DNA from: a virus
Lineage: Duplodnaviria; Heunggongvirae; Uroviricota; Caudoviricetes
Direction: 5' to 3' (one strand)
Virus record (IMG/VR): IMGVR_UViG_3300042876_000208
Location: 64,001-93,619 of that record
Length of the DNA stretch: 29,619 bases
Position 1 is the first letter of the stretch, and every line of letters begins with the position of its first letter. Below are positions 5,660 to 23,620 of the stretch, in pieces. The position numbers were made by a program, and so were the translations under genes. Under the pieces are notes generated by a model. That model saw only the letters and a program-made list of their open reading frames with translations. It was not told where the DNA came from and did not search any database.

Positions 5660-6335
5660 ATCCTAAATCCTTATAGCACAATTCTTTATAGGGACACATA
5701 TGACAATTGTTTGTATATATGCCCTTTGGGTAATATAGTTTTTGTTTGATTGCTTGTGCTATTACGGGTATTATAGCATTAAATAGCGTATTTGTCAAGG
5801 CCGGATTTGATTTCAATTTCAATAGTTTTCCGGTTGTCAATGACGCATAATAAGTTGCGATTGGTTCTTTCTTAAATAAGCGTCGATAAGCCTCACTATA
5901 AACTATAAACTGAATATCCTTTGAAATATCTTTCGGAGTAGAATTCTTTGTTTTCCAATCAAAAATATTTCCGTTAGAAATTCTATCCATTCTACCTACT
6001 AGGAAAACATCTTTCTCTAGTTGTAATTTAAAGGTATATTCTATTTCATCATCTTTACTTAATAATCCTGCAAAGCTTTCAAAGAAAGTATGAATACAAA
6101 GCAGGGCTTTATCAGTCATAGATGGATTAAGTGAAAAGAATTTAGTTTGGTCACCAACTTCTTTTACGGCTAAATCCTTATCATTCCAAAACTTTTCTAT
6201 AGCCGCGTGAACTATAGTTCCAACTAGCATATCATCGCTAGTAATACTTTGTTCCTTTTGAGTAGTTCTATAAGCAAAGCGTTGTGGGCAATCTATGAAA
6301 TCTTGTATGGCGGTTGCGGATAAGAATATTGGCAT
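5631..6335 (-). CDS. PD-(D/E)XK nuclease, RecB/Cas4-like
   Basis: LSATAIQDFIDCPQRF, GTIVHAAIE, GRMDRI...IFDWKT, QFIVY and CHMCPYKELC motifs. Confidence 0.8.
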   Translation of the reverse strand: MPIFLSATAIQDFIDCPQRFAYRTTQKEQSITSDDMLVGTIVHAAIEKFWNDKDLAVKEVGDQTKFFSLNPSMTDKALLCIHTFFESFAGLLSKDDEIEYTFKLQLEKDVFLVGRMDRISNGNIFDWKTKNSTPKDISKDIQFIVYSEAYRRLFKKEPIATYYASLTTGKLLKLKSNPALTNTLFNAIIPVIAQAIKQKLYYPKGIYTNNCHMCPYKELCYKDLGYVQDSIRNI

Positions 6336-6709
6336 TATAGAGCCGCCTTTCTTTCATTCGCGCTAAGAGTTCTCCAAATATCAAGCATCGTCTTGTAAAC
6401 ATCCATCTTAATTTTTAGCTTATCTAGTTGTGATGAAACATCTGCATAAGACTCTCTAAATGGAATAAGTTCACCGTTAATTCCGGTATACTTATAAACG
6501 TCATTAATATAGTTCATAGCGGGTACTTTGCCGTTTTGAAAGAACCTTGTATCGGTAGTTACAAGTTTAACTATTTCAGATTCCTTAGTTTTTATTTGAA
6601 TTTCTAGTTTAGATTTCTCATAAGAAAGTCTTTCAATTTCTGAGGCTAGGTTCATAAAGTCCTCATAGTCGGGTAACTTTCTAATTAGTTCCGTAATGTT
6701 TGTGTTCAT
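6335..6709 (-). CDS. Hypothetical coiled-coil protein, possibly a recombination mediator
   Basis: 124 aa helical ORF ending WRTLSANER; located in the recombination module. Confidence 0.55.
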   Translation of the reverse strand: MNTNITELIRKLPDYEDFMNLASEIERLSYEKSKLEIQIKTKESEIVKLVTTDTRFFQNGKVPAMNYINDVYKYTGINGELIPFRESYADVSSQLDKLKIKMDVYKTMLDIWRTLSANERKAAL

Positions 6710-9332: not shown

Positions 9333-9714
9333 TATCTAACTCCGGTATAATCAATTTTTGTTTCTTTTGTTTCTCAATTTGTTTCTCAAGGCTTAAGGCT
9401 ACCTTGTTTAAATCTTGACTTTCCACCAAAACAATTCCATACTTTTGGTCTAAACGCTTTTTAGCAAAATAGGAAAGTAATGGATATAAGCTATCAAAAT
9501 TTATTTCTGTCATGCTAGACATATCTAAGATTGAAAAGTATACTACAAACCTACCATAAATTTTTAGTAGTCTATTGAATAGAATAACTTCGTTTCTTGT
9601 AATACGTCTATCAAAAACATTTCCAAAAAATTGAGCGAGAACTAGACCGGGATTAGTTGATGACGATAATCTTTCATAATACAAATCTGCAACATTTTCA
9701 CTAAAATCTGTCAT
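9325..9714 (-). CDS. Hypothetical protein, possibly helicase-associated
   Basis: 129 aa ORF overlapping the dnaB start. Confidence 0.6.
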   Translation of the reverse strand: MTDFSENVADLYYERLSSSTNPGLVLAQFFGNVFDRRITRNEVILFNRLLKIYGRFVVYFSILDMSSMTEINFDSLYPLLSYFAKKRLDQKYGIVLVESQDLNKVALSLEKQIEKQKKQKLIIPELDNG

Positions 9715-9731
9715 AACTTTCTCCTAGAAAT

Positions 9732-9761
9732 ACCGGAGGGTAATTTTTCATACCCTCCGGT
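9732..9761 (-). terminator. Stem-loop after the SSB gene, probable terminator
   Basis: 11-bp perfect stem accggagggta/taccctccggt with AT-rich flanks. Confidence 0.6.
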
Positions 9762-14958: not shown

Positions 14959-15315
14959 ATGAAAGTAATAGTAGCGGGTTCTCGTTCTATAACAGATATT
15001 AAATATGTTATTAAGGCTATGAAAGATTCTGGATTTGAAATTGACGAACTAGTTTCCGGTGGTGCAATTGGTGTAGATAGCCTAGCAGAATCTGTAGCTA
15101 GATTTAATGGAATCCCGGTTACTCAATTCCTACCGGATTGGGTTAAGTATGGTAAACGCGCCGGATTTGTTCGTAATGCTGAAATGGCAGATTATGCCGA
15201 TGCCCTAATAGCAGTTTGGGATGGTGAATCTCATGGTACAAGCAATATGATAGAACAGGCAATGAAAAATGGATTAAAAATTTATATTTATAAGGTAGAA
15301 CAAAATGGCCAGTAA
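14959..15315 (+). CDS. SLOG-family protein (YspA/DUF2493-like)
   Basis: KVIVAGSR, SGGAIGVD, AGFVRNAEM and LIAVWDGESHGT motifs; start moved to ATG 14959 after aggag. Confidence 0.8.
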   Translation: MKVIVAGSRSITDIKYVIKAMKDSGFEIDELVSGGAIGVDSLAESVARFNGIPVTQFLPDWVKYGKRAGFVRNAEMADYADALIAVWDGESHGTSNMIEQAMKNGLKIYIYKVEQNGQ

Positions 15316-15535
15316 AAATAAGAATGGTGAATGGATTTGCTCTTATTGTGAAAAGGTGTATGTCCACCCACAAGATGCCGATGTTTGTAGGGAGAGCCAC
15401 GATTTAATTTTGGTTCAATTAACAAAAGAGGAATTGAATAGAATAGTACAATTTCTATTTACGAAAGATGACGATTTATTGAGTGAACAATTAGTAAAAC
15501 GATTACAAAAATATTTGAAAAATCGAGCAATTTGA
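15305..15535 (+). CDS. Small Zn-finger-like protein
   Basis: WICSYCEKVY...CRESH. Confidence 0.6.
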   Translation: MASKNKNGEWICSYCEKVYVHPQDADVCRESHDLILVQLTKEELNRIVQFLFTKDDDLLSEQLVKRLQKYLKNRAI

Positions 15536-15539
15536 CCCC

Positions 15540-15568
15540 TTGACAAATAAAAAGAGTTGTGCTAAAAT
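15540..15568 (+). promoter_or_regulatory. Sigma70-type promoter heading the tRNA array
   Basis: TTGACA-17 nt-TAAAAT with TGn. Confidence 0.85.
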
Positions 15569-15629
15569 AGACCCATCGTTAAATTTAAGCACAAAATTGA
15601 AAAATGTGTTAGAATTAATTTAACAAAAT

Positions 15630-15701
15630 GGCCCGTTAGTTCAAAAGTAGAGCGTCTCTCTGTCGAAGAGAAGGTTAGGATAGCATAATTCCTACGGGTC
15701 G
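15630..15701 (+). tRNA. tRNA-Asp(GTC), atypical elbow
   Basis: Acceptor ggcccgt/acgggtc; anticodon arm tctct-ctGTCga-agaga; G73; T-loop AGCATAA. Confidence 0.8.
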
Positions 15702-15774
15702 CCTGTCTTAAAGGTTGCGTTTGTCGTAAAACAAACTAAGCGTGTGACCTTCAACGGGGTGCAATGCCCCAAGC

Positions 15775-15848
15775 GTTCCTATACGATAATCGGACTAGTC
15801 ATCCACACTCTCAATGTGGCAATGCGGGTTCAAGCCCCGCTGGGAACA
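15775..15848 (+). tRNA. tRNA-Glu(CTC)
   Basis: gttccta/tgggaac; ccaca-ctCTCaa-tgtgg; TTCAAGC T-loop. Confidence 0.9.
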
Positions 15849-15854
15849 CTACAT

Positions 15855-15927
15855 GCCCTCATAACACAACGGACAAGTGTAGAAGACTCTTAATCTTTTA
15901 ATCAGGGTTCGATTCCCTGTGAAGGCA
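15855..15927 (+). tRNA. tRNA-Lys(CTT)
   Basis: gccctca/tgaaggc; gaaga-ctCTTaa-tcttt; TTCGATT. Confidence 0.9.
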
Positions 15928-15928
15928 C

Positions 15929-15991
15929 TAGACTACTTACAGCAAATATAAAACAATTGACAGTTAATCAATCAACGTTTTATGTAGTCTA
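15929..15991 (+). ncRNA. ACAGCAA stem motif, copy 1
   Basis: tagactac/gtagtcta stem; ACAGCAA at 15939-15945; inner hairpin. Confidence 0.7.
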
Positions 15992-15995
15992 ATTT

Positions 15996-16067
15996 CGGGA
16001 AGTAGGGTAACGGTAGCCCACTACGTTTGGGACGTAGCCAGTGAAAGTTCAAGTCTTTCTTTCCCGA
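15996..16067 (+). tRNA. tRNA-Pro(TGG)
   Basis: cgggaag/tttcccg; ctacg-ttTGGga-cgtag; TTCAAGT. Confidence 0.9.
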
Positions 16068-16073
16068 CAACAT

Positions 16074-16146
16074 CATGTGGTAGCCCAATTGGTAAAGGCG
16101 TTGCGTTGTGGCCGCAAATATCTAGGTTCGACTCCTAGCCACCTGA
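16074..16146 (+). tRNA. tRNA-His(GTG)
   Basis: catgtgg/ccacctg; ttgcg-ttGTGgc-cgcaa; T at -1 opposite A73. Confidence 0.85.
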
Positions 16147-16152
16147 CTAGCG

Positions 16153-16303
16153 TACTATTTCCCGAAAGGAATAGTATCTATAAAGTCGATAGTTAGCGGA
16201 TATACAGAAAGTCCTATTATAATGGCTCTCTACTGTGCAGAGGAACTAACTACGTGACATATAGAGTTTTAAAACGTACTCGTGTCTTACGTTAAAGACA
16301 CCA
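16153..16303 (+). ncRNA. Unassigned multi-hairpin structured spacer RNA
   Basis: Long interrupted helix 16178-16196/16246-16264 plus flanking hairpins; no ORF support. Confidence 0.5.
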
Positions 16304-16306
16304 TAT

Positions 16307-16377
16307 GCGTGTATAGTGAAAAAGTATCACACCATCCTTCCAAGTTGGAATTGAGATTGCGAAATTCTCTACCCGCA
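16307..16377 (+). tRNA. tRNA-Gly(TCC), atypical elbow
   Basis: gcgtgta/tacccgc; ccatc-ctTCCaa-gttgg; T-loop TGCGAAA. Confidence 0.8.
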
Positions 16378-16382
16378 CCTAT

Positions 16383-16473
16383 GGATGTTAGCCGGATATT
16401 GGTTGAGCCGGAGCGGTCTGTAAAATCGTATGGCCTGGAAGAAGGCATATTAGTTCAATTCTAATAACATCCA
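16383..16473 (+). tRNA. tRNA-Tyr(GTA)
   Basis: ggatgtt/aacatcc; gcggt-ctGTAaa-atcgt; long variable arm. Confidence 0.9.
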
Positions 16474-16481
16474 CAAAACTT

Positions 16482-16552
16482 GGGGTACGTAATGTAACGG
16501 GAACATATCTTCCTTGCAAGAAGAACTAGGGGTTCGACTCCCACGCGCTCCA
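16482..16552 (+). tRNA. tRNA-Ala(TGC), irregular acceptor/T stem
   Basis: G3.U70 present; tcttc-ctTGCaa-gaaga; best fit is an 8-bp acceptor with a 3-4 bp T stem. Confidence 0.75.
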
Positions 16553-16603
16553 CTAGTAATACAACATATTCGGGTTCTATCTAGGAGAAAGGAAAGGTTT
16601 AAA

Positions 16604-16834
16604 GTGAAACTGTTTACGGATAAGGAATTTGGTTTGATTTTGGAAGCACTCGGCACTACTAAGGATAAGGCTACCGAAAGGGTAACTGCGGCAAAGAGTG
16701 ACCTTGAAACTTAGGTTACATCACTTACCGACAATATTAAAGAGGTCAGTGCAAGACTAACCGAACTTAGTAAGGAACAGAAAGAAAAGAGCAAGACTCT
16801 TAAGTTACTTGGTGGTGTACTAGCTAGACTATAA
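16604..16834 (+). pseudogene. 76-aa coiled-coil ORF interrupted by an in-frame TAG (16712-16714)
   Basis: Strong RBS then GTG; heptad-like sequence continues 39 codons past the TAG to TAA. Confidence 0.6.
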
Positions 16835-16845
16835 AAATTAAATAA

Positions 16846-16903
16846 AAAGATTACCTACAGCAACTATAAAAAATCAATTGGATGATAATTAAAGGTAATC
16901 TTT
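16846..16903 (+). ncRNA. ACAGCAA stem motif, copy 2
   Basis: aaagattacct/aggtaatcttt 11-bp stem; ACAGCAA at 16857-16863. Confidence 0.7.
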
Positions 16904-16905
16904 AT

Positions 16906-16980
16906 GTCCTTGTGGCGAAATGGCTCACGCACTACGCTTAGGACGTAGACAACCTGGAGGTTCGACTCCTCTCAAGGACA
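16906..16980 (+). tRNA. tRNA-Leu(TAG), short variable loop
   Basis: gtccttg/caaggac; ctacg-ctTAGga-cgtag; TTCGACT. Confidence 0.85.
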
Positions 16981-16984
16981 CTAA

Positions 16985-17046
16985 GCCAGCATCTAGAATG
17001 GTTCGATTCCATTCCCCTAGGGATGATGTAATGGAAACATACTGGC
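16985..17046 (+). ncRNA. Circularly permuted tRNA-like RNA (YrlA-like core)
   Basis: Order: gccag, T arm (aatgg-TTCGATT-ccatt), short hairpin, TG, D arm (atgt-aatGGaa-acat), A, ctggc. Confidence 0.7.
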
Positions 17047-17049
17047 AAT

Positions 17050-17120
17050 GACAACTTAACCAAGCGGCTAGGTAACTGTCTGCAAAACAGTTTAAGCGAG
17101 TCCGATTCTCGCAGTTGTCT
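17050..17120 (+). tRNA. tRNA-Cys(GCA)
   Basis: gacaact/agttgtc; actgt-ctGCAaa-acagt; U73. Confidence 0.9.
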
Positions 17121-17126
17121 CAATAC

Positions 17127-17164
17127 ACGCTCATCTCCTAGTGGTAAAGGAACTAATTTATGGA
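17127..17164 (+). pseudogene. 5' tRNA half remnant fused to the HNH start
   Basis: D-arm-like tcct-agtggtaa-agga, then ctaat-ttATGga; no 3' half. Confidence 0.45.
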
Positions 17165-17678
17165 AGAAATTTGGAAAGATGTTATCGGCTACGAAACATA
17201 TTATAAAGTGAGTACACGAGGAAGAGTGTTTAGCTATCGGTCTAATAGAATAGTTAAGCCCTCAAAAATAGGCTCAGGCTACTTATGTATATCTACTAGA
17301 TTAAATGGAAGAGCATCCCCCTGCCTAGCCTTAAGAATTCATCGTTTAGTAGCTATCGCTTTTTTGGACAATCCAGATAATTTACCAGAAGTAAATCATA
17401 TAGATGGTATAAAAACAAATAATGATATTACTAATCTAGAATGGTGTACACATCAAGAAAATGTTATACATGCCAGTAAGTTAGGGCTACTTCATATTAC
17501 ACGCGGCGTTGATTCTCCAGTGGCTAAACTCTTTAAAGAAGAAGTTGAACAGATAAGAGATTTGTATGCTACAAAAGCGTTTACACAATTAGAATTAAGT
17601 TTAATGTATGATGTATCAAGACCAACAATTTCAAGAGTAATAAATAATAAAGTATACTCCTTTAGCTCAGAAGTGTAG
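17160..17678 (+). CDS. NUMOD4-HNH homing endonuclease with C-terminal HTH
   Basis: EIWKDVIGYETYYKVSTRGRV; HRLVAIAF...VNHIDGIKTNN...NLEWCT; HTH-like tail. Confidence 0.9.
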   Translation: MEEIWKDVIGYETYYKVSTRGRVFSYRSNRIVKPSKIGSGYLCISTRLNGRASPCLALRIHRLVAIAFLDNPDNLPEVNHIDGIKTNNDITNLEWCTHQENVIHASKLGLLHITRGVDSPVAKLFKEEVEQIRDLYATKAFTQLELSLMYDVSRPTISRVINNKVYSFSSEV

Positions 17679-17729
17679 AGCGTTCGGTTTACATCCGAAA
17701 GGTCGGGATTGCAAAATTCTCAAGGAGTA
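17656..17729 (+). tRNA. tRNA-Val(TAC), atypical elbow
   Basis: actcctt/aaggagt; ttcgg-ttTACat-ccgaa; T-loop TGCAAAA; overlaps the HNH 3' end. Confidence 0.8.
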
Positions 17730-17733
17730 CTTT

Positions 17734-17807
17734 GTACCTTTCGTGATTACGGTTTAACACGCCATGCTGAAGACATGGAAAACTCAGTTCGACACTGAGA
17801 GGGTACA
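17734..17807 (+). tRNA. tRNA-Phe(GAA)
   Basis: gtacctt/agggtac; ccatg-ctGAAga-catgg; TTCGACA. Confidence 0.9.
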
Positions 17808-17873
17808 CTGTCTCGTTGTTCCCGAAGACACGCAAGCTATGGGATACTAAACTCTTTTTAGTAATCGGGACAT

Positions 17874-17900
17874 GCAGAAGTAGCTCAACTGGTCAGAGCT
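17874..17900 (+). pseudogene. 5' tRNA half (acceptor strand + D arm) truncated by an antisense HNH gene
   Basis: gcagaag-ta-gctc-aactggtca-gagc, then unrelated sequence. Confidence 0.7.
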
Positions 17901-18348
17901 TTATTAATCCGGCATGAATTTCTCTGTGACAGTTTGAACAAACTAAGATACATTTATCCAGTTCTATTTTTACTTTATTCCACGCTTTGTTAGTATTAGT
18001 TGAAATACTAAAATCTTTTGTATTTGGGTTCTTATGATGAAATTCAAGAGCCTCAACACACTTGGAATAACCACAAACACAACACTTACCGCCACAATAT
18101 TCTACTGCTTTTTGTTTTGTTCTTTTTCTAAATGATTTTATTCTAGGGTAGTCTTTTATTGGTGTATCTCTACAAGAATCACATAGTTTTCTGTATCGTT
18201 CTACTGGTTTTCCACAAATATGACAACCTCTTTCAACATCTATCTTTGCAACATGTCTAATATACAACTTGTTGTTTAAAATTGCAGAACAACTTCTAGA
18301 GCAAAACTTTGGGTTTTTTGTTTCTTTGCCACAATTTAAACACTTCAT
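17893..18348 (-). CDS. HNH endonuclease with N-terminal Zn fingers, antisense to the array
   Basis: MKCLNCGK...FCSRSC; CCVCGY...LEFHH...LDKCILVCSNCHREIH; start moved to ATG 18348 after aaaggag. Confidence 0.85.
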   Translation of the reverse strand: MKCLNCGKETKNPKFCSRSCSAILNNKLYIRHVAKIDVERGCHICGKPVERYRKLCDSCRDTPIKDYPRIKSFRKRTKQKAVEYCGGKCCVCGYSKCVEALEFHHKNPNTKDFSISTNTNKAWNKVKIELDKCILVCSNCHREIHAGLIKL

Positions 18349-18361
18349 TATTATCTCCTTT

Positions 18362-18437
18362 GGGTAGGTACTATCAATTGGTTCAGATGAGAATCCTGAT
18401 AAGGTTCTGTGTGCAGGTTCGATTCCTGCTCTACCCA
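18362..18437 (+). tRNA. tRNA-Ile(GAT)
   Basis: gggtagg/tctaccc; gaatc-ctGATaa-ggttc; TTCGATT. Confidence 0.85.
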
Positions 18438-18466
18438 CTCTATATACAGTAATTATATCATAAATT

Positions 18467-18528
18467 GCAGAAATATGTATCAAATGGTGATACACGAAAG
18501 GTTGGGAGTCCGAGTCTCTCTTTCCGCA
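18467..18528 (+). ncRNA. Anticodon-less tRNA-like RNA
   Basis: gcagaaa/tttccgc acceptor; 6-bp D hairpin with GG loop; cgaaag in place of the anticodon arm; T arm gggag-TCCGAGT-ctctc. Confidence 0.65.
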
Positions 18529-18627
18529 CAAGGTTACAAGCCTTACTACACTTAAGCCATTGTGTAGCCCCTAATAAGACAGCCGGTGCATCGTTAACGG
18601 TAGAAGGGCATCTAATCCATCGGCCAA

Positions 18628-18704
18628 GCTTGTGTGATGCAAATATGGCAGACATGTCTTGCTCAAAACGAGATTTTTTGAAGGTTCGAGTCCTTTCACA
18701 AGCA
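18628..18704 (+). tRNA. tRNA-Leu(CAA), short variable loop
   Basis: gcttgtg/cacaagc; tcttg-ctCAAaa-cgaga; TTCGAGT. Confidence 0.85.
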
Positions 18705-18717
18705 CTAGGAGAACATT

Positions 18718-19461
18718 ATGTTAATTAGTATTAGTGCAAGAGTTACCGTACCCGCTCTTAGAATAAGAGCTTATGCTGGTATTGAGAATGAAATTACTGG
18801 AATGTTATTCTATTCAAACCCCGTAGAAATACGTGAGGTTATCCCCGTAGGAACTGAGTTTTGGGGTAGAGTAGAAAGAGGTTGGATTTGTTTAAAGCAA
18901 GGTATCTTTACTTATACAAATCTAAGAAACTTTTCTTGGTATGTTGGTTCTACAAATTTATATAGAGTTGCCGCAGAAAGATGGCCAGAACTACACGGAC
19001 AGACTAGACCCCCGAACGGTGGCCCATTAGTCCAGGTAGCAAGTGATTCCATCAAAGGTGGCAAGTATATTTACCCACTAGATAAAGTGGCACAGGATTA
19101 TATTAGAATGTGGAACAACGCTCGTGGTTATGCTAAGATTGTAGCACCCGACGTCGGCCCCTCGCAAGGGATAGACCCATTAACCGGAAGACTTAAATGG
19201 AATTACTTAGTCTGGCCTTCCGTAACTAATAATCCTAATACTCTAAAGGTTGTGGAAACATTAGGTGATTGGTGTAGATTTGAAACCATTCCTTACGTGT
19301 TTCCCGTAGCAAAGGATATTAATCCTACAGCTACACCCTGGTTATTTCATAAGATGTGTGATAATATGGGTAATCCATTTATAGTAGATGGTGCTTATAT
19401 AATTCTACCTATATTTGGAAAGGCATGTTGGGTTCCAAGTAGAGCTTTAATAAAGTTATGA
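18718..19461 (+). CDS. Protein with an N-terminal SH3b-like (cell-wall-binding) domain
   Basis: VTVPALRIRAYAG...FWGRVERGWICL resembles bacterial SH3; remainder unrecognised. Confidence 0.55.
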   Translation: MLISISARVTVPALRIRAYAGIENEITGMLFYSNPVEIREVIPVGTEFWGRVERGWICLKQGIFTYTNLRNFSWYVGSTNLYRVAAERWPELHGQTRPPNGGPLVQVASDSIKGGKYIYPLDKVAQDYIRMWNNARGYAKIVAPDVGPSQGIDPLTGRLKWNYLVWPSVTNNPNTLKVVETLGDWCRFETIPYVFPVAKDINPTATPWLFHKMCDNMGNPFIVDGAYIILPIFGKACWVPSRALIKL

Positions 19462-19545
19462 GAGGTAGCCTGAGAGGTCAGAATTGGTCTTGAAAACCAT
19501 GCCATCCAGTGCCCCTGGGTGAGGGTTCGACTCCTTTACCTCCCG
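19460..19545 (+). tRNA. tRNA-Ser(TGA), weak D arm
   Basis: ttggt-ctTGAaa-accat; long variable arm; TTCGACT; G73. Confidence 0.7.
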
Positions 19546-19549
19546 CTAT

Positions 19550-19636
19550 TGAGAATTGACAGAGTGGCAATGTGTACGTTTGCTAAACGTAAGCCATCCT
19601 TGAGTGGATGCACAGGTTCAATCCCTGTATTCTCAG
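19550..19636 (+). tRNA. tRNA-Ser(GCT)
   Basis: tgagaat/attctca; tacgt-ttGCTaa-acgta; long variable arm; G73. Confidence 0.85.
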
Positions 19637-19641
19637 CTTAT

Positions 19642-19714
19642 TGACGAGTCGTTTAAATGGATAGACATCGCACTCTGGATGCGAGAAGTGTAGGTTCGAC
19701 TCCTACCTCGTCAG
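19642..19714 (+). tRNA. tRNA-Gln(CTG)
   Basis: tgacgag/ctcgtca; tcgca-ctCTGga-tgcga; TTCGACT. Confidence 0.9.
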
Positions 19715-19735
19715 CTAGTAAGAAAGGAGATAATT

Positions 19736-19918
19736 ATGGGAAGTATAGATATATTTCTGATTGTTTCTATAATTGCCATAATCATAGCGATTATTGCTAC
19801 AATAATTATGGCTATAGCATTGATACGGTTCATTAAAAGAATGAACGAACTAGACAAACAATTTGAGCAAACGATTAACACCCTTTTAGAGTATAAAAGG
19901 GGTCTTGACAAAAAATAA
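19736..19918 (+). CDS. Small membrane protein (60 aa)
   Basis: agaaaggag RBS; one long TM segment then a charged tail. Confidence 0.7.
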   Translation: MGSIDIFLIVSIIAIIIAIIATIIMAIALIRFIKRMNELDKQFEQTINTLLEYKRGLDKK

Positions 19919-19933
19919 GACCTATGCTATAAT
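19905..19933 (+). promoter_or_regulatory. Perfect sigma70-type promoter upstream of the tRNA-like RNA and DUF2828 gene
   Basis: TTGACA-17 nt-TATAAT with TGn; ggtctt/aagacc inverted repeat overlaps the -35 box. Confidence 0.9.
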
Positions 19934-19937
19934 ACAC

Positions 19938-20065
19938 GAGTGGTTAAGCAACGCCGAGGTCGCAAGGTGCGTATAAAATAAAACTAATCTTGGGATTAGA
20001 CACAGCCACTCATATAAAACTTCTTCTGACTAAGAAAATTGTGGGTTCAATTCCCTCCCTCGGCT
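19938..20065 (+). ncRNA. tRNA-like RNA with the D arm replaced by ~60 nt and crossing helices
   Basis: gccgagg/cctcggc acceptor; T arm with TTCAATT; anticodon-like arm; gagtggt/gccactc crossing helix. Confidence 0.6.
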
Positions 20066-20071
20066 CTAAAC

Positions 20072-20127
20072 TAGATTGCATACAGCAACTATAATTCTTA
20101 CTGCAAATAGAGAGAAAATGCAATCTA
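20072..20127 (+). ncRNA. ACAGCAA stem motif, copy 3 (upstream of DUF2828)
   Basis: tagattgcat/atgcaatcta 10-bp stem; ACAGCAA at 20082-20088. Confidence 0.7.
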
Positions 20128-20170
20128 TGTTATTTCATTCAAATCAAGGATTAAGAAAAGGAGTATTGAA

Positions 20171-21589
20171 ATGACAAGGCTATTTAAGGCTCTAACAACA
20201 AATGACACAGTAACAACAAACGGAATGGTAACTAATTCCACATCCTCAAACTACCTATTGGATATGTTTTTCAGGATGGGTGGTTCAAGACAGATGGACG
20301 AGTCATCAATCCAGACCATGTTCCTAAACGCTTATCATGAGAACCCAGAATATGCTCTAAAGGCATTGTTCTACAATCGTGATATTCGTGGTGGGCAGGG
20401 TGAAAGACGCTCGTTTAGATTGATGTTTCAGGCTCTATGTATTGTAGACCCATCAACTGCAATTAGATTGATTAACTATGTTCCTGAGTATGGTAGATGG
20501 GATGACCTATTCGTAGCATTTGGAACAGATGTTTGGGAGTCTGTAACTGATTTAATCTTAAGCTCTCTAAAGCGTGGTGACAAGCTTTGTGCAAAGTGGA
20601 TGCCTAGACCTAACAAGGCAAAGGCTTACATTGCGAAGGATTTGGCAAAGGCTTGGGGTCTTTCACTAGATGACTATAGAGACTTAATTGTAAAGCATAC
20701 CGATGTAGTAGAAACTCTCATGTGCAAGAGAGAGTGGACTGCAATCAATTACAATCATGTTCCATCAAAGGCTAGCCATCAGTATAGAGGTGCATACCTA
20801 AAGCATGACGAGGATAGATACCGCGAGTGGCTGGGTAATCTAACTAAGGTTGATGAAAAGGGTAAGCCACTAGCTAAGGTAAATGCGGGTGCAATTTTCC
20901 CACATGATGTAATCAAGCCTTACTTTGGTTATGGCAACACAGATACTGATACATTGATTGAGGCCCAGTGGAAGGCACTTCCTGAGTATGCACCAAAGGG
21001 TAATAAGGTAATTTCTGTTTGTGACGTATCCGGTTCTATGAATGGTCTACCTTTGCTAGTATGTTTAGCATTGGGTATCTACACCGCAGAGAGAAACAAT
21101 GGTATCTTTAAGAATGGTTTCATTACATTCTCAGAGAGACCAGCTCTACAGATTCTTAAGGGTAAGACCTTGAGAGACAAGGTAAATGAACTACATAGAG
21201 CGCATTGGGATATGAACACAAATCTAGAGGCAGTATTTGAACTACTACTTACTTCCGCTAAGAGAGATAATCTATCCGAAGAGGATATGCCAGATACCAT
21301 CCTAATCCTATCCGATATGCAGTTTGATGCTTGTGTAAGAAATAAGAGCAACAGTGCTATTGATATGATTAAGAGAATGTATTCAGAAGCAGGATACAAT
21401 GTTCCTAATGTAATCTTTTGGAACTTGAATACAGGTAGTGGTATTCCAGTAAAGTATGATACTAGCGGCACAGCCGTTGTATCCGGGTTTAGTCCATCTA
21501 TTCTAAAGAGCATTATAAGTGGTAATATTAACCCAATTGCTCAGATGATGGAAGTTCTAAACTCAGAACGCTACTCAAAGATTAACTAA
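20171..21589 (+). CDS. DUF2828-family protein, Ro60/TROVE-like N-terminus + vWA domain
   Basis: RDIRGGQGER, VPEYGRWDDL, LCAKWMPR, VNAGAIFPHDV, VCDVSGSM (MIDAS DxSxS), NTNLEAVF, ILSDMQFD, IFWNL and SGFSP motifs. Confidence 0.9.
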   Translation: MTRLFKALTTNDTVTTNGMVTNSTSSNYLLDMFFRMGGSRQMDESSIQTMFLNAYHENPEYALKALFYNRDIRGGQGERRSFRLMFQALCIVDPSTAIRLINYVPEYGRWDDLFVAFGTDVWESVTDLILSSLKRGDKLCAKWMPRPNKAKAYIAKDLAKAWGLSLDDYRDLIVKHTDVVETLMCKREWTAINYNHVPSKASHQYRGAYLKHDEDRYREWLGNLTKVDEKGKPLAKVNAGAIFPHDVIKPYFGYGNTDTDTLIEAQWKALPEYAPKGNKVISVCDVSGSMNGLPLLVCLALGIYTAERNNGIFKNGFITFSERPALQILKGKTLRDKVNELHRAHWDMNTNLEAVFELLLTSAKRDNLSEEDMPDTILILSDMQFDACVRNKSNSAIDMIKRMYSEAGYNVPNVIFWNLNTGSGIPVKYDTSGTAVVSGFSPSILKSIISGNINPIAQMMEVLNSERYSKIN

Positions 21590-21590
21590 A

Positions 21591-21658
21591 AGAATGGTGT
21601 GGTCAGGGAAAGACCTTAAATCGTTGTTCAAGTGAGCCCCAAGATAACAGCCATTTCT
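21591..21658 (+). ncRNA. Structured element directly downstream of DUF2828
   Basis: agaatgg(t)/(g)ccatttct outer helix; ggtc-agggaaa-gacc hairpin. Confidence 0.45.
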
Positions 21659-21662
21659 AACT

Positions 21663-21878
21663 ATGAATAATTATTTGCAGTGGCAATGTTCAGCATCCGG
21701 TATAGAGTTTAATCCTAACGGATACATCACCGCAACCGGAATTTCAAATTTATATGAACCACAAGAGTATATACAAACTAGAGCTACCGTTGTTTTACAT
21801 AAGGTTAAATGTCCTTATTGCGGAAGCTATGGTGAAAGATTTAGTAATTGTACTCATTGTGGTGGTGCAATAGATTAA
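21663..21878 (+). CDS. Small protein with C-terminal double CxxC Zn ribbon
   Basis: KCPYCGS...NCTHCGG. Confidence 0.65.
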   Translation: MNNYLQWQCSASGIEFNPNGYITATGISNLYEPQEYIQTRATVVLHKVKCPYCGSYGERFSNCTHCGGAID

Positions 21879-21881
21879 CAC

Positions 21882-21933
21882 AGACTACATACAGCAAACA
21901 TACTTTGGGTAGCCACCCGCTTGGCAGTAGTCT
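21882..21933 (+). ncRNA. ACAGCAA stem motif, copy 4
   Basis: agactac/gtagtct stem; ACAGCAA at 21891-21897; inner gggt-agcc-accc hairpin. Confidence 0.7.
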
Positions 21934-21939
21934 TTATAT

Positions 21940-22010
21940 AGGTTGTTAGTATAGTGGTATTATAAACGTCTCCAAAACGTAGGACAGGAGTTCGATTCTT
22001 CTACGACCTG
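21940..22010 (+). tRNA. tRNA-Trp(CCA)
   Basis: aggttgt/acgacct; aacgt-ctCCAaa-acgta; G73. Confidence 0.9.
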
Positions 22011-22027
22011 CTAAAAAGGAATTAATT

Positions 22028-22156
22028 ATGTCTGAACTTCTACCATATGTAGCCGTAGCAATTATAGCTTTAATAATCACTGCCTATTTTGGATATAGTG
22101 TAACTATCGGATTAATTATAGCTATGATATTACAAAGTTTAGGCATAACGTTTTAA
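22028..22156 (+). CDS. 42-aa membrane peptide (MSELLPYVAVAIIALIITAYFG...)
   Basis: Hand-translated; aaaagga RBS; hydrophobic throughout. Confidence 0.55.
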   Translation: MSELLPYVAVAIIALIITAYFGYSVTIGLIIAMILQSLGITF

Positions 22157-22161
22157 ATCAA

Positions 22162-22235
22162 TGCGCGGTGGACTGGAGCGGTTCCAGCACGTCCCCATAA
22201 GTCGTATCACGAGAGTCCGAATCTCTCCCGCGCAA
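22162..22235 (+). tRNA. tRNA-Met(CAT), atypical (C33, extended D stem)
   Basis: tgcgcgg/ccgcgca; loop ccCATaa; TCCGAAT T-loop; lacks the three G-C pairs of initiator tRNA. Confidence 0.7.
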
Positions 22236-22299
22236 CTAATAGCTAAGTATATATAACGATTGGCTAACTACCACAACAACGTATACTTAGCTGTGCTAT

Positions 22300-22370
22300 T
22301 CCCGAATCGTACAATGGCAGTACGCGAAGCTGTTAACTTCGTTATCGTGGTTCGAGTCCATGTTTGGGAG
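22300..22370 (+). tRNA. tRNA-Asn(GTT)
   Basis: tcccgaa/tttggga; cgaag-ctGTTaa-cttcg; G73. Confidence 0.9.
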
Positions 22371-22374
22371 CTAT

Positions 22375-22450
22375 GCGACTTTAAACCCTCACGCTTCTAA
22401 CGTGCTGGAAGGTTAACGGATACATGCAGGTTCAAATCCTGTAAGTCGCG
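22375..22450 (+). ncRNA. Topologically rearranged tRNA-Arg(TCT)-like RNA
   Basis: Perfect acceptor gcgactt/aagtcgc and T arm; anticodon hairpin cacg-ctTCTaa-cgtg nested inside an aacc/ggtt stem; D-loop-like AACGGATA lies 3' of it. Confidence 0.65.
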
Positions 22451-22470
22451 CCTAGTAGAGAGGATACAAA

Positions 22471-22686
22471 ATGAACCACAAAAGAGAAGTAACATCTTAT
22501 ACCGAACGTTATTACACCATTGTAAAGTGGAATAATGAACTAGTAGGATATGAAGAAATAGAAATATTGGATAGTGAATTAAGTGAGGTTTCCGCAGTTC
22601 ATTATATGTATTCAAAATATGGCTTTGGAAAAGAATATAAAGTACGTCAAGTATTTATAACTAAGCTATATTATGATATAGAATAA
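22471..22686 (+). CDS. Hypothetical protein (71 aa)
   Basis: ORF with a gagagga RBS. Confidence 0.65.
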   Translation: MNHKREVTSYTERYYTIVKWNNELVGYEEIEILDSELSEVSAVHYMYSKYGFGKEYKVRQVFITKLYYDIE

Positions 22687-22691
22687 ATCAT

Positions 22692-22763
22692 GCCTTGTAA
22701 ACATATATAGTGATGTACCTGTCCTGTAAACAGGATAACTGGACGCAAGTTCCAGACGAGGCT
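22692..22763 (+). tRNA. tRNA-Thr(TGT), atypical elbow, C33
   Basis: gccttgt/acgaggc; cctgt-ccTGTaa-acagg; T-loop CGCAAGT. Confidence 0.7.
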
Positions 22764-22768
22764 CTAAA

Positions 22769-22863
22769 AGACTTGTAACAGAAAACTCAAATTAACCACA
22801 CAACACAAGAGTCTATAACTACGTTGTAGGTTCTTAGTTGTGTGATGACACAATATCAAGTCT
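22769..22863 (+). ncRNA. ACAGAAA variant of the stem motif, copy 5, long inner hairpin
   Basis: agacttg/caagtct stem; ACAGAAA at 22778-22784; inner cacacaac/gttgtgtg and ctataac/gttgtag helices. Confidence 0.6.
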
Positions 22864-22868
22864 AATTC

Positions 22869-22941
22869 GCACTCGTAGCTCAATGGTCAGAGCAACTGTC
22901 CTATTAACAGCAAGTTGGGGGTTCGACTCCCTCGGAGTGCA
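22869..22941 (+). tRNA. tRNA with TAT anticodon (Ile AUA reader or pseudo-tRNA), Thr-like acceptor
   Basis: gcactc/gagtgc; canonical D and T arms; loop ccTATta lacks U33 and purine 37. Confidence 0.6.
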
Positions 22942-22945
22942 CAAG

Positions 22946-22996
22946 GTTAAAGCCCCATAGAGTTTTTTCGCCTCCTTTCTACTATGGGGCTTTAAC
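22946..22996 (+). ncRNA. 15-bp hairpin with an anti-Shine-Dalgarno loop
   Basis: gttaaagccccatag/ctatggggctttaac; loop contains CCTCCTTTCTA. Confidence 0.65.
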
Positions 22997-22999
22997 TAC

Positions 23000-23028
23000 T
23001 TGACTTTTTGAACAAAAGGATTTATAAT
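23000..23028 (+). promoter_or_regulatory. Sigma70-type promoter after the array
   Basis: TTGACT-17 nt-TATAAT. Confidence 0.8.
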
Positions 23029-23239
23029 GTATAAAATAAAATGTCCCTTTTGCCTAGGTTGCATGGATTTGGTTTACACCCCACAAATGGAACAAGTATG
23101 GCATTGTTGGTTGTGTAAAACTTGGTACGTAAATGAGTTGGAAAATGGTTTGAGAAAAGTTGAAAATCCATTACTGGAGAATATAGATAACAAGCCAAAT
23201 TCCTAAAGGTAAGAATAAAAAAGAAAGGTACAAAAAATC

Positions 23240-23620
23240 ATGGAGACATTTCTGAAGAACATTGGGTTCTTTAGATTGGCAATAGAGCAATCAAAGAAGT
23301 CTACACATAAGGTAAAGGTTGGGGCAGTTCTAGCTAACAAGCGCCCTGTGGCAAGAGGTTATAACAAGATTAAATCTCATCCGATTTGGGCTAATCCATC
23401 TAAGCATGTAAAGATTTCCATTCATGCTGAAATAGATTGTCTTATGGATAGCTCAGCTAGTGAGGGTGATACAATGTATGTCTATCGTGAAGATAGTCTA
23501 GGTTGGCCAGCTCTAGCAAGACCTTGTGTTGATTGTATGAAAGTATTGAAAGAACGCGGGATTAGAAAGGTCATCTACAGTATAGCACATCCTCCATACT
23601 ATAAAGAGGAGTTCATATAA
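23240..23620 (+). CDS. Zn-dependent cytidine/dCMP deaminase-superfamily protein
   Basis: KVGAVL, ARGYN, HAEID and ARPCVDC motifs. Confidence 0.85.
   Translation: METFLKNIGFFRLAIEQSKKSTHKVKVGAVLANKRPVARGYNKIKSHPIWANPSKHVKISIHAEIDCLMDSSASEGDTMYVYREDSLGWPALARPCVDCMKVLKERGIRKVIYSIAHPPYYKEEFI

What the first reader, a model, noticed from the sequence alone, without database searches (positions are those of the whole stretch)
16985..17046. Circularly permuted tRNA core (YrlA-like topology) between tRNA-Leu and tRNA-Cys
Reading 5' to 3': gccag; 7-nt linker; T arm aatgg-TTCGATT-ccatt; a 3-4 bp hairpin closed by a CTA(G) loop in the acceptor position; T8-G9; D arm atgt-aatGGaa-acat; A26; ctggc, which pairs with the opening gccag. 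All elbow determinants (U8, A14, G18G19, TTC, A58) are intact, but the chain is opened at the anticodon and closed at the acceptor. This is the known geometry of the YrlA Y RNA tRNA-like domain. The long Ro-binding stem is missing (only 5 bp), so it looks like a free ~62-nt effector module that cannot be aminoacylated or decode.
Basis: partly seen in the sequence, partly recalled or inferred. Interest (0 to 1): 0.8.

Follow-up and report, generated by a model that had tools for sequence, protein, structure and literature searches.

The report
Stand-alone permuted tRNA mimic in phage
Between two ordinary tRNA genes of a soil phage lies a 62-base stretch that can fold like a tRNA with its ends rewired (sealed acceptor end, no anticodon); it looks like the tRNA-shaped head of the Y RNAs that partner Ro60 proteins, but lacks their docking stem, and because this copy has no relatives to compare I cannot tell whether it works or is a leftover.

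Summary
At 16985-17046 (+) the sequence reads: 5-bp closing helix, 7-nt linker, T arm, 3-bp hairpin with a CTA loop, A-T-G, D arm, A, closing strand. All 17 pairs are Watson-Crick, and the T-loop and D-loop elbow bases are intact. It fills the 68-nt spacer between tRNA-Leu and tRNA-Cys. Chance is unlikely (0.003 hits per shuffled strand).

Context supports the YrlA comparison. The DUF2828 gene 3.1 kb downstream is predicted to have a Ro60 fold. Many DUF2828 phages carry Y-like RNAs (stem plus CAGCAA "handle") that enclose the same T / closed-acceptor / D order, and Rfam YrlA matches two of them below threshold. This phage has only handle-only elements, plus this one handle-less head. A second, unrelated phage (L057) shows the same layout.

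Membership is not shown. Rfam YrlA gives no hit. My two models score the element no better than tRNA-tRNA junctions. Its acceptor-like hairpin (3 bp) is the shortest seen, the 15-48 Levitt pair is missing, and no orthologue exists because the phage has no close relatives.

Best reading (about 0.4): a stand-alone tRNA-elbow mimic released by tRNA processing. A decaying remnant is nearly as likely. Earlier notes from this scan report handle-less heads in other soil phages.

The parts
16981..17049 (+). Whole spacer between tRNA-Leu and tRNA-Cys. This is the 69-nt RNA expected if the 3' end of tRNA-Leu is cut after the discriminator and RNase P cuts at G17050.
   Evidence: tRNA borders. Release is inferred from standard tRNA processing and is not observed.
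16985..16989 (+). Closing helix, 5' strand GCCAG (equivalent to the anticodon stem)
   Evidence: Pairs 5/5 Watson-Crick with 17042-17046
16990..16996 (+). 7-nt linker CATCTAG (equivalent to the variable loop)
   Evidence: The related family has 4-9 nt here, mostly 5.
16997..17013 (+). T arm AATGG-TTCGATT-CCATT
   Evidence: an orphan T arm, not part of any called tRNA
17014..17022 (+). Acceptor-position hairpin CCC-CTA-GGG. It overlaps the 8-nt palindrome CCCTAGGG (17015-17022).
   Evidence: It is the shortest of 37 such hairpins surveyed; all others have 5-9 bp.
17023..17025 (+). Junction A-T-G (T and G at positions 8 and 9)
   Evidence: The family has 2 nt here (TA or TG).
17026..17040 (+). 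D arm ATGT-AATGGAA-ACAT
17041..17046 (+). A26 equivalent plus closing helix 3' strand CTGGC
16906..16980 (+). tRNA-Leu(tag), upstream neighbour
   Evidence: (54.2 bits)
17050..17121 (+). tRNA-Cys(gca), downstream neighbour
   Evidence: (53.5 bits)
15540..15568 (+). Promoter-like site (TTGACA-17-TAAAAT with TG) at the head of the tRNA/ncRNA array. No + strand terminator-like site lies between it and 19905.
16847..16902 (+). Handle-only Y-like element (stem plus ACAGCAA, no tRNA-like insert), 3 nt upstream of tRNA-Leu
   Evidence: Model R1, 26.4 bits, E=0.0022
15929..15991 (+). Handle-only Y-like element
   Evidence: R1, 26.8 bits, E=0.0018
20072..20127 (+). Handle-only Y-like element just upstream of the Ro60-like gene
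   Evidence: R1, 30.3 bits, E=0.00038
20171..21589 (+). DUF2828/DUF7788 protein with a predicted Ro60 fold (HEAT-repeat ring plus vWA domain)
   Evidence: Pfam hits. AF2 model, pLDDT 77.5. Foldseek PDB top hits are phage phiLo Ro60 9kop/9l5y, Xenopus Ro 2i91/1yvr and Rsr 2nvo, E 1e-8 to 1e-6, TM about 0.4-0.56.

Best explanation
The element is a handle-less, minimal version of the tRNA-like head of YrlA-type Y RNAs. It is encoded as a spacer in the phage's tRNA operon. Proposed steps: (1) It is transcribed from the promoter at 15540 as part of the polycistronic tRNA/ncRNA precursor (promoter and absence of terminators predicted, not shown). (2) 3' maturation of tRNA-Leu and RNase P cleavage at tRNA-Cys release a 69-nt RNA, 16981-17049 (inferred). 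(3) It folds into a 5-bp terminal helix, a T arm stacked on a 3-bp capped hairpin, and a D arm, with the D and T loops locking into a tRNA elbow (inferred from conserved bases; not favoured by nearest-neighbour energy). (4) With no acceptor end and no anticodon, it cannot be charged or decode. It would present only the elbow and the T and D stems, the surface that Wang et al. 2018 propose binds the unknown YrlA effector. It would act either alongside the phage's Ro60-like protein and its handle-only Y-like RNAs, or as a decoy for a host factor that binds the tRNA elbow (speculative).
For: The architecture is exact and unlikely by chance. All 17 pairs are Watson-Crick and the elbow bases are intact, which is not what a long-decayed copy would show. 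The element fills a tRNA-tRNA spacer. Other long spacers of this array also hold structured RNAs, while plain spacers are about 5 nt. A Ro60-fold gene lies 3.1 kb downstream in the same array. In 170 DUF2828-anchored loci the same T / closed hairpin / D order recurs inside a covarying Y-like family: 24 predicted pairs, 17 with compensatory changes. Rfam YrlA matches two members below threshold (39.4 bits with E=2.3e-5; 31.3 bits with E=0.005). These RNAs lie up to about 7 kb from the gene. The Rfam YrlA consensus has a 4-bp inner helix, a 4-nt linker, a T arm, a G/C-rich hairpin with a 'cua' loop, UA and a D arm, which is the layout seen here. This window has handle-only elements but no handle with a head. 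An unrelated phage, L057 (DUF2828 39% identical), has the same layout. It carries four handle-only elements plus one handle-less T / 7-bp hairpin / D module at 6262-6339, closed by 5 bp, in the spacer between tRNA-Glu and tRNA-Pro.
Against: No orthologue exists, so there is no covariation or conservation for this copy. Rfam YrlA gives no hit at E<=10. Family models score the element at 21.0 bits (R1, partial) and 13.7 bits (R2, full length). That is within or below the range of tRNA-tRNA junctions in the same window, 15.6-19.7 bits. The acceptor hairpin is the shortest of 37. Position 15 is A and position 48 is G, whereas the family covaries A15-U48 / G15-C48. There is an extra junction nucleotide. 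The tRNA-like fold is 2.9 kcal/mol above the MFE and holds 0.07% of the ensemble. Handle-less modules are rare (2 in about 250 loci), and the L057 module is absent from L057's own relatives at 75-90% protein identity. That pattern suits short-lived by-products. No expression data exist.
Confidence: 0.42

Rival explanations
1. A decaying remnant with no function of its own. Either it is a former Y-like RNA that lost its handle and most of its acceptor hairpin by deletions, or it is what is left of a tandem tRNA duplication after deletions in a fast-rearranging tRNA array rich in homing endonucleases.
For: The element is an outlier on every variable feature: 3-bp hairpin, 7-nt linker, 3-nt junction, no Levitt pair. 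Its model scores are no better than tRNA junctions. It is a singleton. tRNA arrays of related phages are reshuffled even at 90% protein identity, and the L057 free module is not kept in L057's relatives. An HNH endonuclease gene lies 40 nt past tRNA-Cys. Other truncated tRNA look-alikes and orphan T arms occur in this and related arrays.
Against: All 17 pairs and all elbow bases are intact. The borders fall exactly at the ends of the closing helix. Either route needs two or three separate deletions that each spare the folded core. There is no clear recent paralogy to any tRNA of the genome: the best D-half match is to tRNA-Ala, at the 99th percentile of unrelated tRNAs, but among 23 tested.
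Confidence: 0.32
2. A cis-acting structured spacer. The fold, tRNA-like or hairpin, serves only the processing or stability of the neighbouring tRNAs, for example by spacing or guiding RNase P and 3' maturation, and the released piece is discarded.
For: It sits exactly between two tRNAs with 3-4 nt gaps. RNase P recognises the T-loop/D-loop elbow (established knowledge).
Against: Most neighbouring tRNAs in this and related arrays manage with spacers of about 5 nt. Nothing ties Leu or Cys tRNAs to such an element elsewhere; L057's module lies between Glu and Pro.
Confidence: 0.1
3. The RNA folds as the irregular long hairpin or three-way junction favoured by energy models, and the tRNA likeness is incidental.
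For: The MFE fold is -15.6 kcal/mol against -12.7 for the tRNA-like fold. There is 7-nt complementarity between the D loop and the T arm. The CATC/GATG plus TAG/CTA alternative scores -12.2.
Against: The MFE hairpin is full of 1-nt bulges, and the z-score of the spacer is only -1.25. Two clear members of the class also have their tRNA-like fold 4.5-7.7 kcal/mol above the MFE. The coincidence of canonical T-loop, D-loop, U8 and A26 at the right spacing is improbable.
Confidence: 0.08
4. A true circularly permuted tRNA gene. The released spacer is ligated end to end, giving a 5-bp stem with the 7-nt loop AAUCUAA (anticodon UCU, Arg), and is then opened at the acceptor.
For: ARAGORN calls the rotated sequence tRNA-Arg(tct). 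The flanks of 4 + 3 nt add up to a 7-nt loop.
Against: The two acceptor strands would overlap by CTAG, so one molecule cannot form a 7-bp acceptor stem. The phage has no RNA ligase, RtcB or CCA-adding enzyme (the control for PF09511 did not ring anywhere). L057's flanks would give a 16-nt loop.
Confidence: 0.02

Closest known systems
YrlA (Y RNA-like A; Rfam RF02553) of bacteria and mycobacteriophages, bound by Ro60/Rsr (Chen et al. 2014, PMC4201824; Wang et al. 2018, bioRxiv 10.1101/312249, PDB 6cu1)
   Same: The order is inner helix - linker - T arm - closed acceptor-like hairpin - two or three nt - D arm - inner helix. The elbow bases are conserved. There is no CCA end and no anticodon loop. 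It is encoded near a Ro60-fold gene and next to tRNAs. The Rfam consensus hairpin is G/C-rich with a 'cua' loop.
   Different: There is no long Ro-binding stem and no GNCGAA-type motif. The acceptor hairpin has 3 bp, against 6 in Salmonella. There is no Rfam hit at E<=10. The partner gene belongs to the DUF2828 branch and is not a Pfam TROVE protein.
Y-like RNAs with a stem plus CAGCAA 'handle' in DUF2828 phages
   Same: The same tRNA-like head architecture, including a 5-bp inner helix and A26. The same genomic setting: a tRNA array within a few kb of the DUF2828 gene. The window holds four handle-only members.
   Different: The element has no handle (TAGGAT.. / ..ATCCTG stem and CAGCAA). Its head is reduced (3-bp against 5-9-bp hairpin) and lacks the covarying 15-48 pair. 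It is not separable from tRNA junctions by model score.
Handle-less module of viral contig L057 (IMGVR_UViG_3300032240_000688), 6262-6339
   Same: It lies in the spacer between two tRNAs. It is closed by only 5 bp and has no CAGCAA handle. It sits 3.7 kb upstream of a DUF2828 gene, in a phage whose other Y-like elements are handle-only.
   Different: L057 has a full 7-bp acceptor-like stem with a 15-nt loop, a 3-nt linker and an A15-U48 pair. It scores 41.4 bits with R2, against 13.7 here. There is no sequence similarity beyond the loops.
Circularly permuted tRNA genes of the red alga Cyanidioschyzon merolae (Soma et al. 2007; cited from memory, not checked here)
   Same: The 3' half (T arm) is encoded upstream of the 5' half (D arm).
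   Different: Those genes yield normal tRNAs after circularisation and RNase P/Z processing. Here a full acceptor stem cannot form and no canonical anticodon loop is encoded.

Membership tests
YrlA (Rfam RF02553) | tRNA-like domain in the order linker - T arm - closed acceptor hairpin - D arm, closed by a helix in place of the anticodon arm | tested here: met
   Sequence, descriptor; order confirmed against Chen 2014 and the Rfam consensus
YrlA (Rfam RF02553) | Conserved tertiary-interaction bases (T54-A58, G18/G19 with 55/56, U8-A14, Levitt pair 15-48) | tested here: inconclusive
   All are present except the Levitt pair: A15 faces G at the end of the linker
YrlA (Rfam RF02553) | Long Ro-binding stem with a conserved 5'-strand motif (GNCGAAN0-1G) | tested here: not met
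   Only a 5-bp helix, flanked directly by tRNAs
YrlA (Rfam RF02553) | Covariance-model score at or above gathering (69 bits) | tested here: not met
   No YrlA match at E<=10 on 16960-17070, nor at E<=5 on 15300-23300
YrlA (Rfam RF02553) | Encoded next to a Ro60 orthologue | tested here: met
   A Ro60-fold DUF2828 gene lies 3.1 kb downstream in the same array. This is looser than 'adjacent'.
YrlA (Rfam RF02553) | Bound by Ro60; modified by TruB and DusA | not testable with these tools
   Needs biochemistry
DUF2828-phage Y-like RNAs with CAGCAA handle (model R1) | Terminal stem (consensus TAGGAT.. / ..ATCCTG) plus CAGCAA motif | tested here: not met
   R1 aligns only model positions 46-113, the head
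DUF2828-phage Y-like RNAs with CAGCAA handle (model R1) | Head recognised by a model of the head alone (R2, 10 sequences, 20 pairs) above the tRNA-junction background | tested here: inconclusive
   13.7 bits, E=0.025, rank 6 in the window behind tRNA junctions. But junctions elsewhere reach about 55 bits, so the model does not discriminate well in general.
DUF2828-phage Y-like RNAs with CAGCAA handle (model R1) | Acceptor-like hairpin of 5-9 bp | tested here: not met
   3 bp, against 5-9 bp in the 36 others
Canonical tRNA (RF00005) | Cloverleaf with free acceptor ends and an anticodon arm | tested here: not met
   Not called by ARAGORN or Rfam on either strand
Circularly permuted tRNA gene | Halves that can rebuild a 7-bp acceptor stem and a canonical anticodon loop after circularisation | tested here: not met
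   The acceptor strands overlap by CTAG. The would-be loop AAUCUAA has A33. No ligase gene was found.

The most novel reading that the evidence does not exclude
This phage, like L057, has unbundled the Y RNA. The Ro60-binding handles and the tRNA-shaped head are made as separate small RNAs cut out of the tRNA operon. The free head acts on its own as a tRNA-elbow decoy or adaptor for a host tRNA-binding factor, possibly as a dimer through its 8-nt palindrome.
Probability: 0.18. Interest if true: 0.7.

Novelty: new variant of a known kind. Interest (0 to 1): 0.45.

Why it matters
The partner of the tRNA-like head of YrlA-type Y RNAs, and the job of that head, are still unknown (Wang 2018). A head that occurs naturally without the Ro-docking stem would show that the head can act, or at least persist, alone. 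It would also give a minimal 62-69-nt bait for pulling down the elbow-binding factor. The finding adds to the picture that phage tRNA operons serve as expression platforms for small structured RNAs linked to a Ro60-like protein. If the element is only a remnant, it records how such RNAs are built and lost in fast-changing tRNA arrays.

Tried and rejected
1. Orthologue searches all failed. An exact 23-mer and a loop-anchored degenerate pattern in viral contigs found only unrelated tRNA contexts. DUF2828-anchored loci from viral contigs, metagenome contigs and genome contigs reach 54% aa identity at most and hold no similar spacer. DNA-polymerase-anchored loci reach 30% at most. GenBank phages gave no DNA match to the region.
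2. Sequencing runs: only two rhizosphere metagenome runs hold the stretch, and they may be its source. They are contigs and show no variants. A third run covers only tRNA-Tyr. No RNA holder is listed.
3. Model R2 as a membership test does not separate heads from tRNA-tRNA junctions.
4. Trans pairing between the element and the handle-only RNAs is no better than for shuffles, here and in L057.
5. Recent copy of one of the phage's own tRNAs: no convincing paralogue.
6. Circularisation into a tRNA-Arg-like RNA was rejected on structure and on the absence of ligase genes.
7. CTA in the hairpin loop as a family signature: only 6 of 37 loops contain it.
8. Coding: the 43-aa and 61-aa frames across the element run through tRNA genes and are not credible.

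Full report
**What is there.** The window is the last 29.6 kb of a 93.6-kb phage genome with direct terminal repeats, taken from IMG/VR. It comes from rhizosphere metagenomes. From about 15.6 to 23 kb the + strand carries an array of about 22 tRNA genes. The array follows a near-consensus promoter at 15540-15568, and no + strand terminator-like site appears before 19905.

The finding lies in the 68-nt spacer between tRNA-Leu(tag), 16906-16980, and tRNA-Cys, 17050-17121.
- GCCAG, the closing helix 5' strand
- CATCTAG, a 7-nt linker
- AATGG-TTCGATT-CCATT, the T arm
- CCC-CTA-GGG, the hairpin in the acceptor position
- A-T-G, the junction
- ATGT-AATGGAA-ACAT, the D arm
- A, then CTGGC, the closing helix 3' strand

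All 17 pairs are Watson-Crick, and the canonical T-loop and D-loop bases, U8 and A26 are present.

**Is it more than chance?** A generic descriptor finds the element once in the window. It gives 0.003 hits per dinucleotide-shuffled strand, and 1.5e-4 when the T arm is kept and its flanks are shuffled. The descriptor was written after seeing the element, so these figures are generous, but chance is not a serious explanation. Only 12 nt separate the T arm from the D arm. This rules out the usual false positive, the T arm of one tRNA followed by the D arm of the next, which needs at least 17-18 nt.

Thermodynamics neither helps nor refutes. The tRNA-like fold is 2.9 kcal/mol above an irregular hairpin, and the spacer's z-score is -1.25. 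Among ten comparable heads from other phages the tRNA-like fold is the MFE, or close to it, in six, and 4.5-7.7 kcal/mol above it in two.

**The surroundings.** The gene at 20171-21589 carries Pfam DUF2828 plus DUF7788. Its AlphaFold model (pLDDT 77.5) matches full-length Ro60 structures: Thermus phage phiLo Ro60, Xenopus Ro and Deinococcus Rsr, at E 1e-8 to 1e-6 and TM about 0.4-0.56. Sequence similarity to Ro60 is only marginal. Homologues occur in 711 GenBank phages, and in metagenomic phage contigs they sit inside tRNA arrays.

I scanned 170 such loci (2.28 Mb, 1424 ARAGORN tRNAs) with the descriptor. Dozens of non-tRNA modules turned up with the same order: T arm, capped hairpin, TA or TG, D arm. 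Nearly all sit inside a conserved 'handle'. The handle is a terminal stem (consensus TAGGATAC / GTATCCTG, with many compensatory variants), a CAGCAA motif on the 5' side and an A-rich 3' strand.

An alignment of 17 of these RNAs gives 24 consensus pairs, 17 of them with double compensatory changes. A model built from it (R1) finds at least 38 hits at E<1e-4 in 87 loci. Rfam's YrlA model matches two members over its full length but below gathering: L075 at 39.4 bits with E=2.3e-5, and L063 at 31.3 bits with E=0.005. DUF2828 phages therefore carry a divergent YrlA-like RNA family. Earlier notes from this scan say the same for many other genomes. Phage Ro60 with Y-like RNAs is published for mycobacteriophages and for Thermus phage phiLo (PMC4201824; PMC12135203).

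**What is special here.** In this window R1 finds only handle-only elements: 20072-20127, 15929-15991, 16847-16902, and more weakly 21881-21983. In each, a short loop replaces the tRNA-like head. The only head in the window is the finding, and it has no handle. Its 5-bp helix abuts the two tRNAs directly.

One other locus, L057, has the same layout. Its DUF2828 protein is 39% identical, and the phage is otherwise unrelated. It carries four handle-only elements plus one handle-less head at 6262-6339. That head lies in the 92-nt spacer between tRNA-Glu and tRNA-Pro and is closed by GTTGT/ACAAC. These were the only two handle-less heads among about 250 loci.

**Why membership is not shown.**
- Rfam YrlA gives no hit on the element, even at E<=10 over 111 nt.
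- R1 aligns only its head positions, at 21.0 bits. A tRNA-Ser/tRNA-Gln junction in the same window scores 19.7.
- A head-only model built from ten clean members (R2) gives 13.7 bits, E=0.025, ranking sixth in the window behind tRNA junctions.
- R2 gives L057's head 41.4 bits. However, tRNA junctions elsewhere reach about 55 bits, so this kind of model does not discriminate well in general. Chen et al. had warned of this.
- Structurally the element is an outlier. Its acceptor hairpin has 3 bp against 5-9 in the 36 others. The linker is 7 nt, against mostly 5. The junction is 3 nt, against 2.
- The family's clear 15-48 covariation (A15 with U48, G15 with C48) is broken: the element has A15 with G.

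**Conservation cannot be tested.** The nearest DUF2828 relatives are at most 54% identical and have different array orders. The DNA polymerase has no relative above 30%. Nothing similar to the spacer exists in any collection searched. The runs that hold the phage are probably its source, and as contigs they show no variants and no RNA.

L057 does have many relatives at 75-99% protein identity. Its handle-less head is absent from those whose flanks I could read, and their arrays are heavily reshuffled. That points to short evolutionary lifetimes for such modules.

**Weighing.** For function:
- The intact pairing and elbow bases.
- The tidy borders at the ends of the closing helix.
- Long spacers in this array generally hold structured RNAs.
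- The same split layout arose independently in L057.
- Reaching this form from either a handle-bearing Y-like RNA or a tRNA duplication needs several deletions that each spare the fold.

For a remnant:
- The outlier features and the low model scores.
- Singleton status and the rarity of the class.
- The lack of persistence in L057's clade.

I put a stand-alone elbow mimic at about 0.42 and a remnant at about 0.32. A cis-acting spacer gets 0.10, the alternative fold 0.08, and a true permuted tRNA gene 0.02.

ARAGORN does call the rotated sequence tRNA-Arg(tct). However, the acceptor strands would overlap by CTAG, position 33 would be A, and the phage has no ligase gene.

**Mechanism, with its status.**
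- Transcription within the tRNA operon is predicted.
- Release by tRNA 3' maturation and RNase P is inferred from textbook processing.
- Folding into an elbow is inferred from conserved bases.
- Action on an elbow-binding factor, or together with the Ro60-like particle, is speculative. I found no base-pairing with the handle-only RNAs.

**Novelty.** Permuted tRNA-like heads of Y RNAs are known, and phage Ro60/Y-like systems are known. A handle-less, minimal head encoded as a tRNA-operon spacer is a new variant. Earlier notes from this scan report handle-less heads in other soil phages. I could not check those, but L057 is an independent example.

Noticed in passing
window 15929-15991, 16847-16902, 20072-20127, 21881-21935: Four handle-only Y-like elements: a terminal stem plus ACAGCAA, with a short loop where other phages carry a tRNA-like head. 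They were detected by a model built only from other phages' RNAs (26-30 bits for the first three; 18.8 bits for a longer hit at 21881-21983).
   Followed up: partly
window 19938-20065; L012 9534-9778; L002 about 9675-9760: A promoter-proximal tRNA-like RNA of about 128 nt, just upstream of the Ro60-like gene. It has the acceptor stem GCCGAGG/CCTCGGC and a T arm. L012 shows the same design: a 5' tRNA half with a D arm, then a CAGCAA handle inserted, then a T arm and the matching acceptor 3' strand. This looks like a conserved second RNA type.
   Followed up: partly
window 18467-18528: A non-permuted tRNA look-alike with an acceptor stem (7 of 8 pairs), a 6-bp D-like hairpin and a T arm (loop TCCGAGT) but no anticodon arm. 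It lies between tRNA-Ile and tRNA-Leu(caa).
   Followed up: no
L057 6262-6339: A handle-less permuted tRNA-like module with a full 7-bp acceptor-like stem, between tRNA-Glu and tRNA-Pro. The phage's other Y-like elements are handle-only. The module is absent from L057's relatives at 75-90% protein identity.
   Followed up: yes
L005 11409-11545: A Y-like RNA just after the DUF2828 gene. Its 7-bp acceptor-like stem is followed by an encoded ACCA and a 15-nt loop. This recalls M. smegmatis YrlA, which RNase P cleaves and which receives CCA.
   Followed up: no
L057 6038-6092 and 7236-7290: The handle-only elements get sub-threshold Rfam hits to Dictyostelium Class I RNA (25.4 bits with E=0.096; 21.6 bits with E=0.86).
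   Followed up: no
window 17015-17022: CCCTAGGG is an 8-nt palindrome at the tip of the acceptor-like hairpin. Two copies of the RNA could pair through it into a two-headed dimer. This is untested.
   Followed up: no
window 17007-17013 and 17030-17036: The D loop AATGGAA is fully complementary to TTCCATT of the T arm. This drives the alternative MFE hairpin. The feature is absent from the other heads examined.
   Followed up: partly
window 15630-15701, 16307-16377, 17656-17729, 22162-22235: tRNAs found by Rfam but missed by ARAGORN. The one at 17656-17729 overlaps the 3' end of the HNH endonuclease ORF (17160-17678).
   Followed up: no
L010 2049-2065: In an unrelated phage contig, an orphan T arm with the same 17-mer (AATGGTTCGATTCCATT) lies 4 nt upstream of a complete tRNA-Gln. 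This shows that stray T arms occur in phage tRNA arrays.
   Followed up: partly
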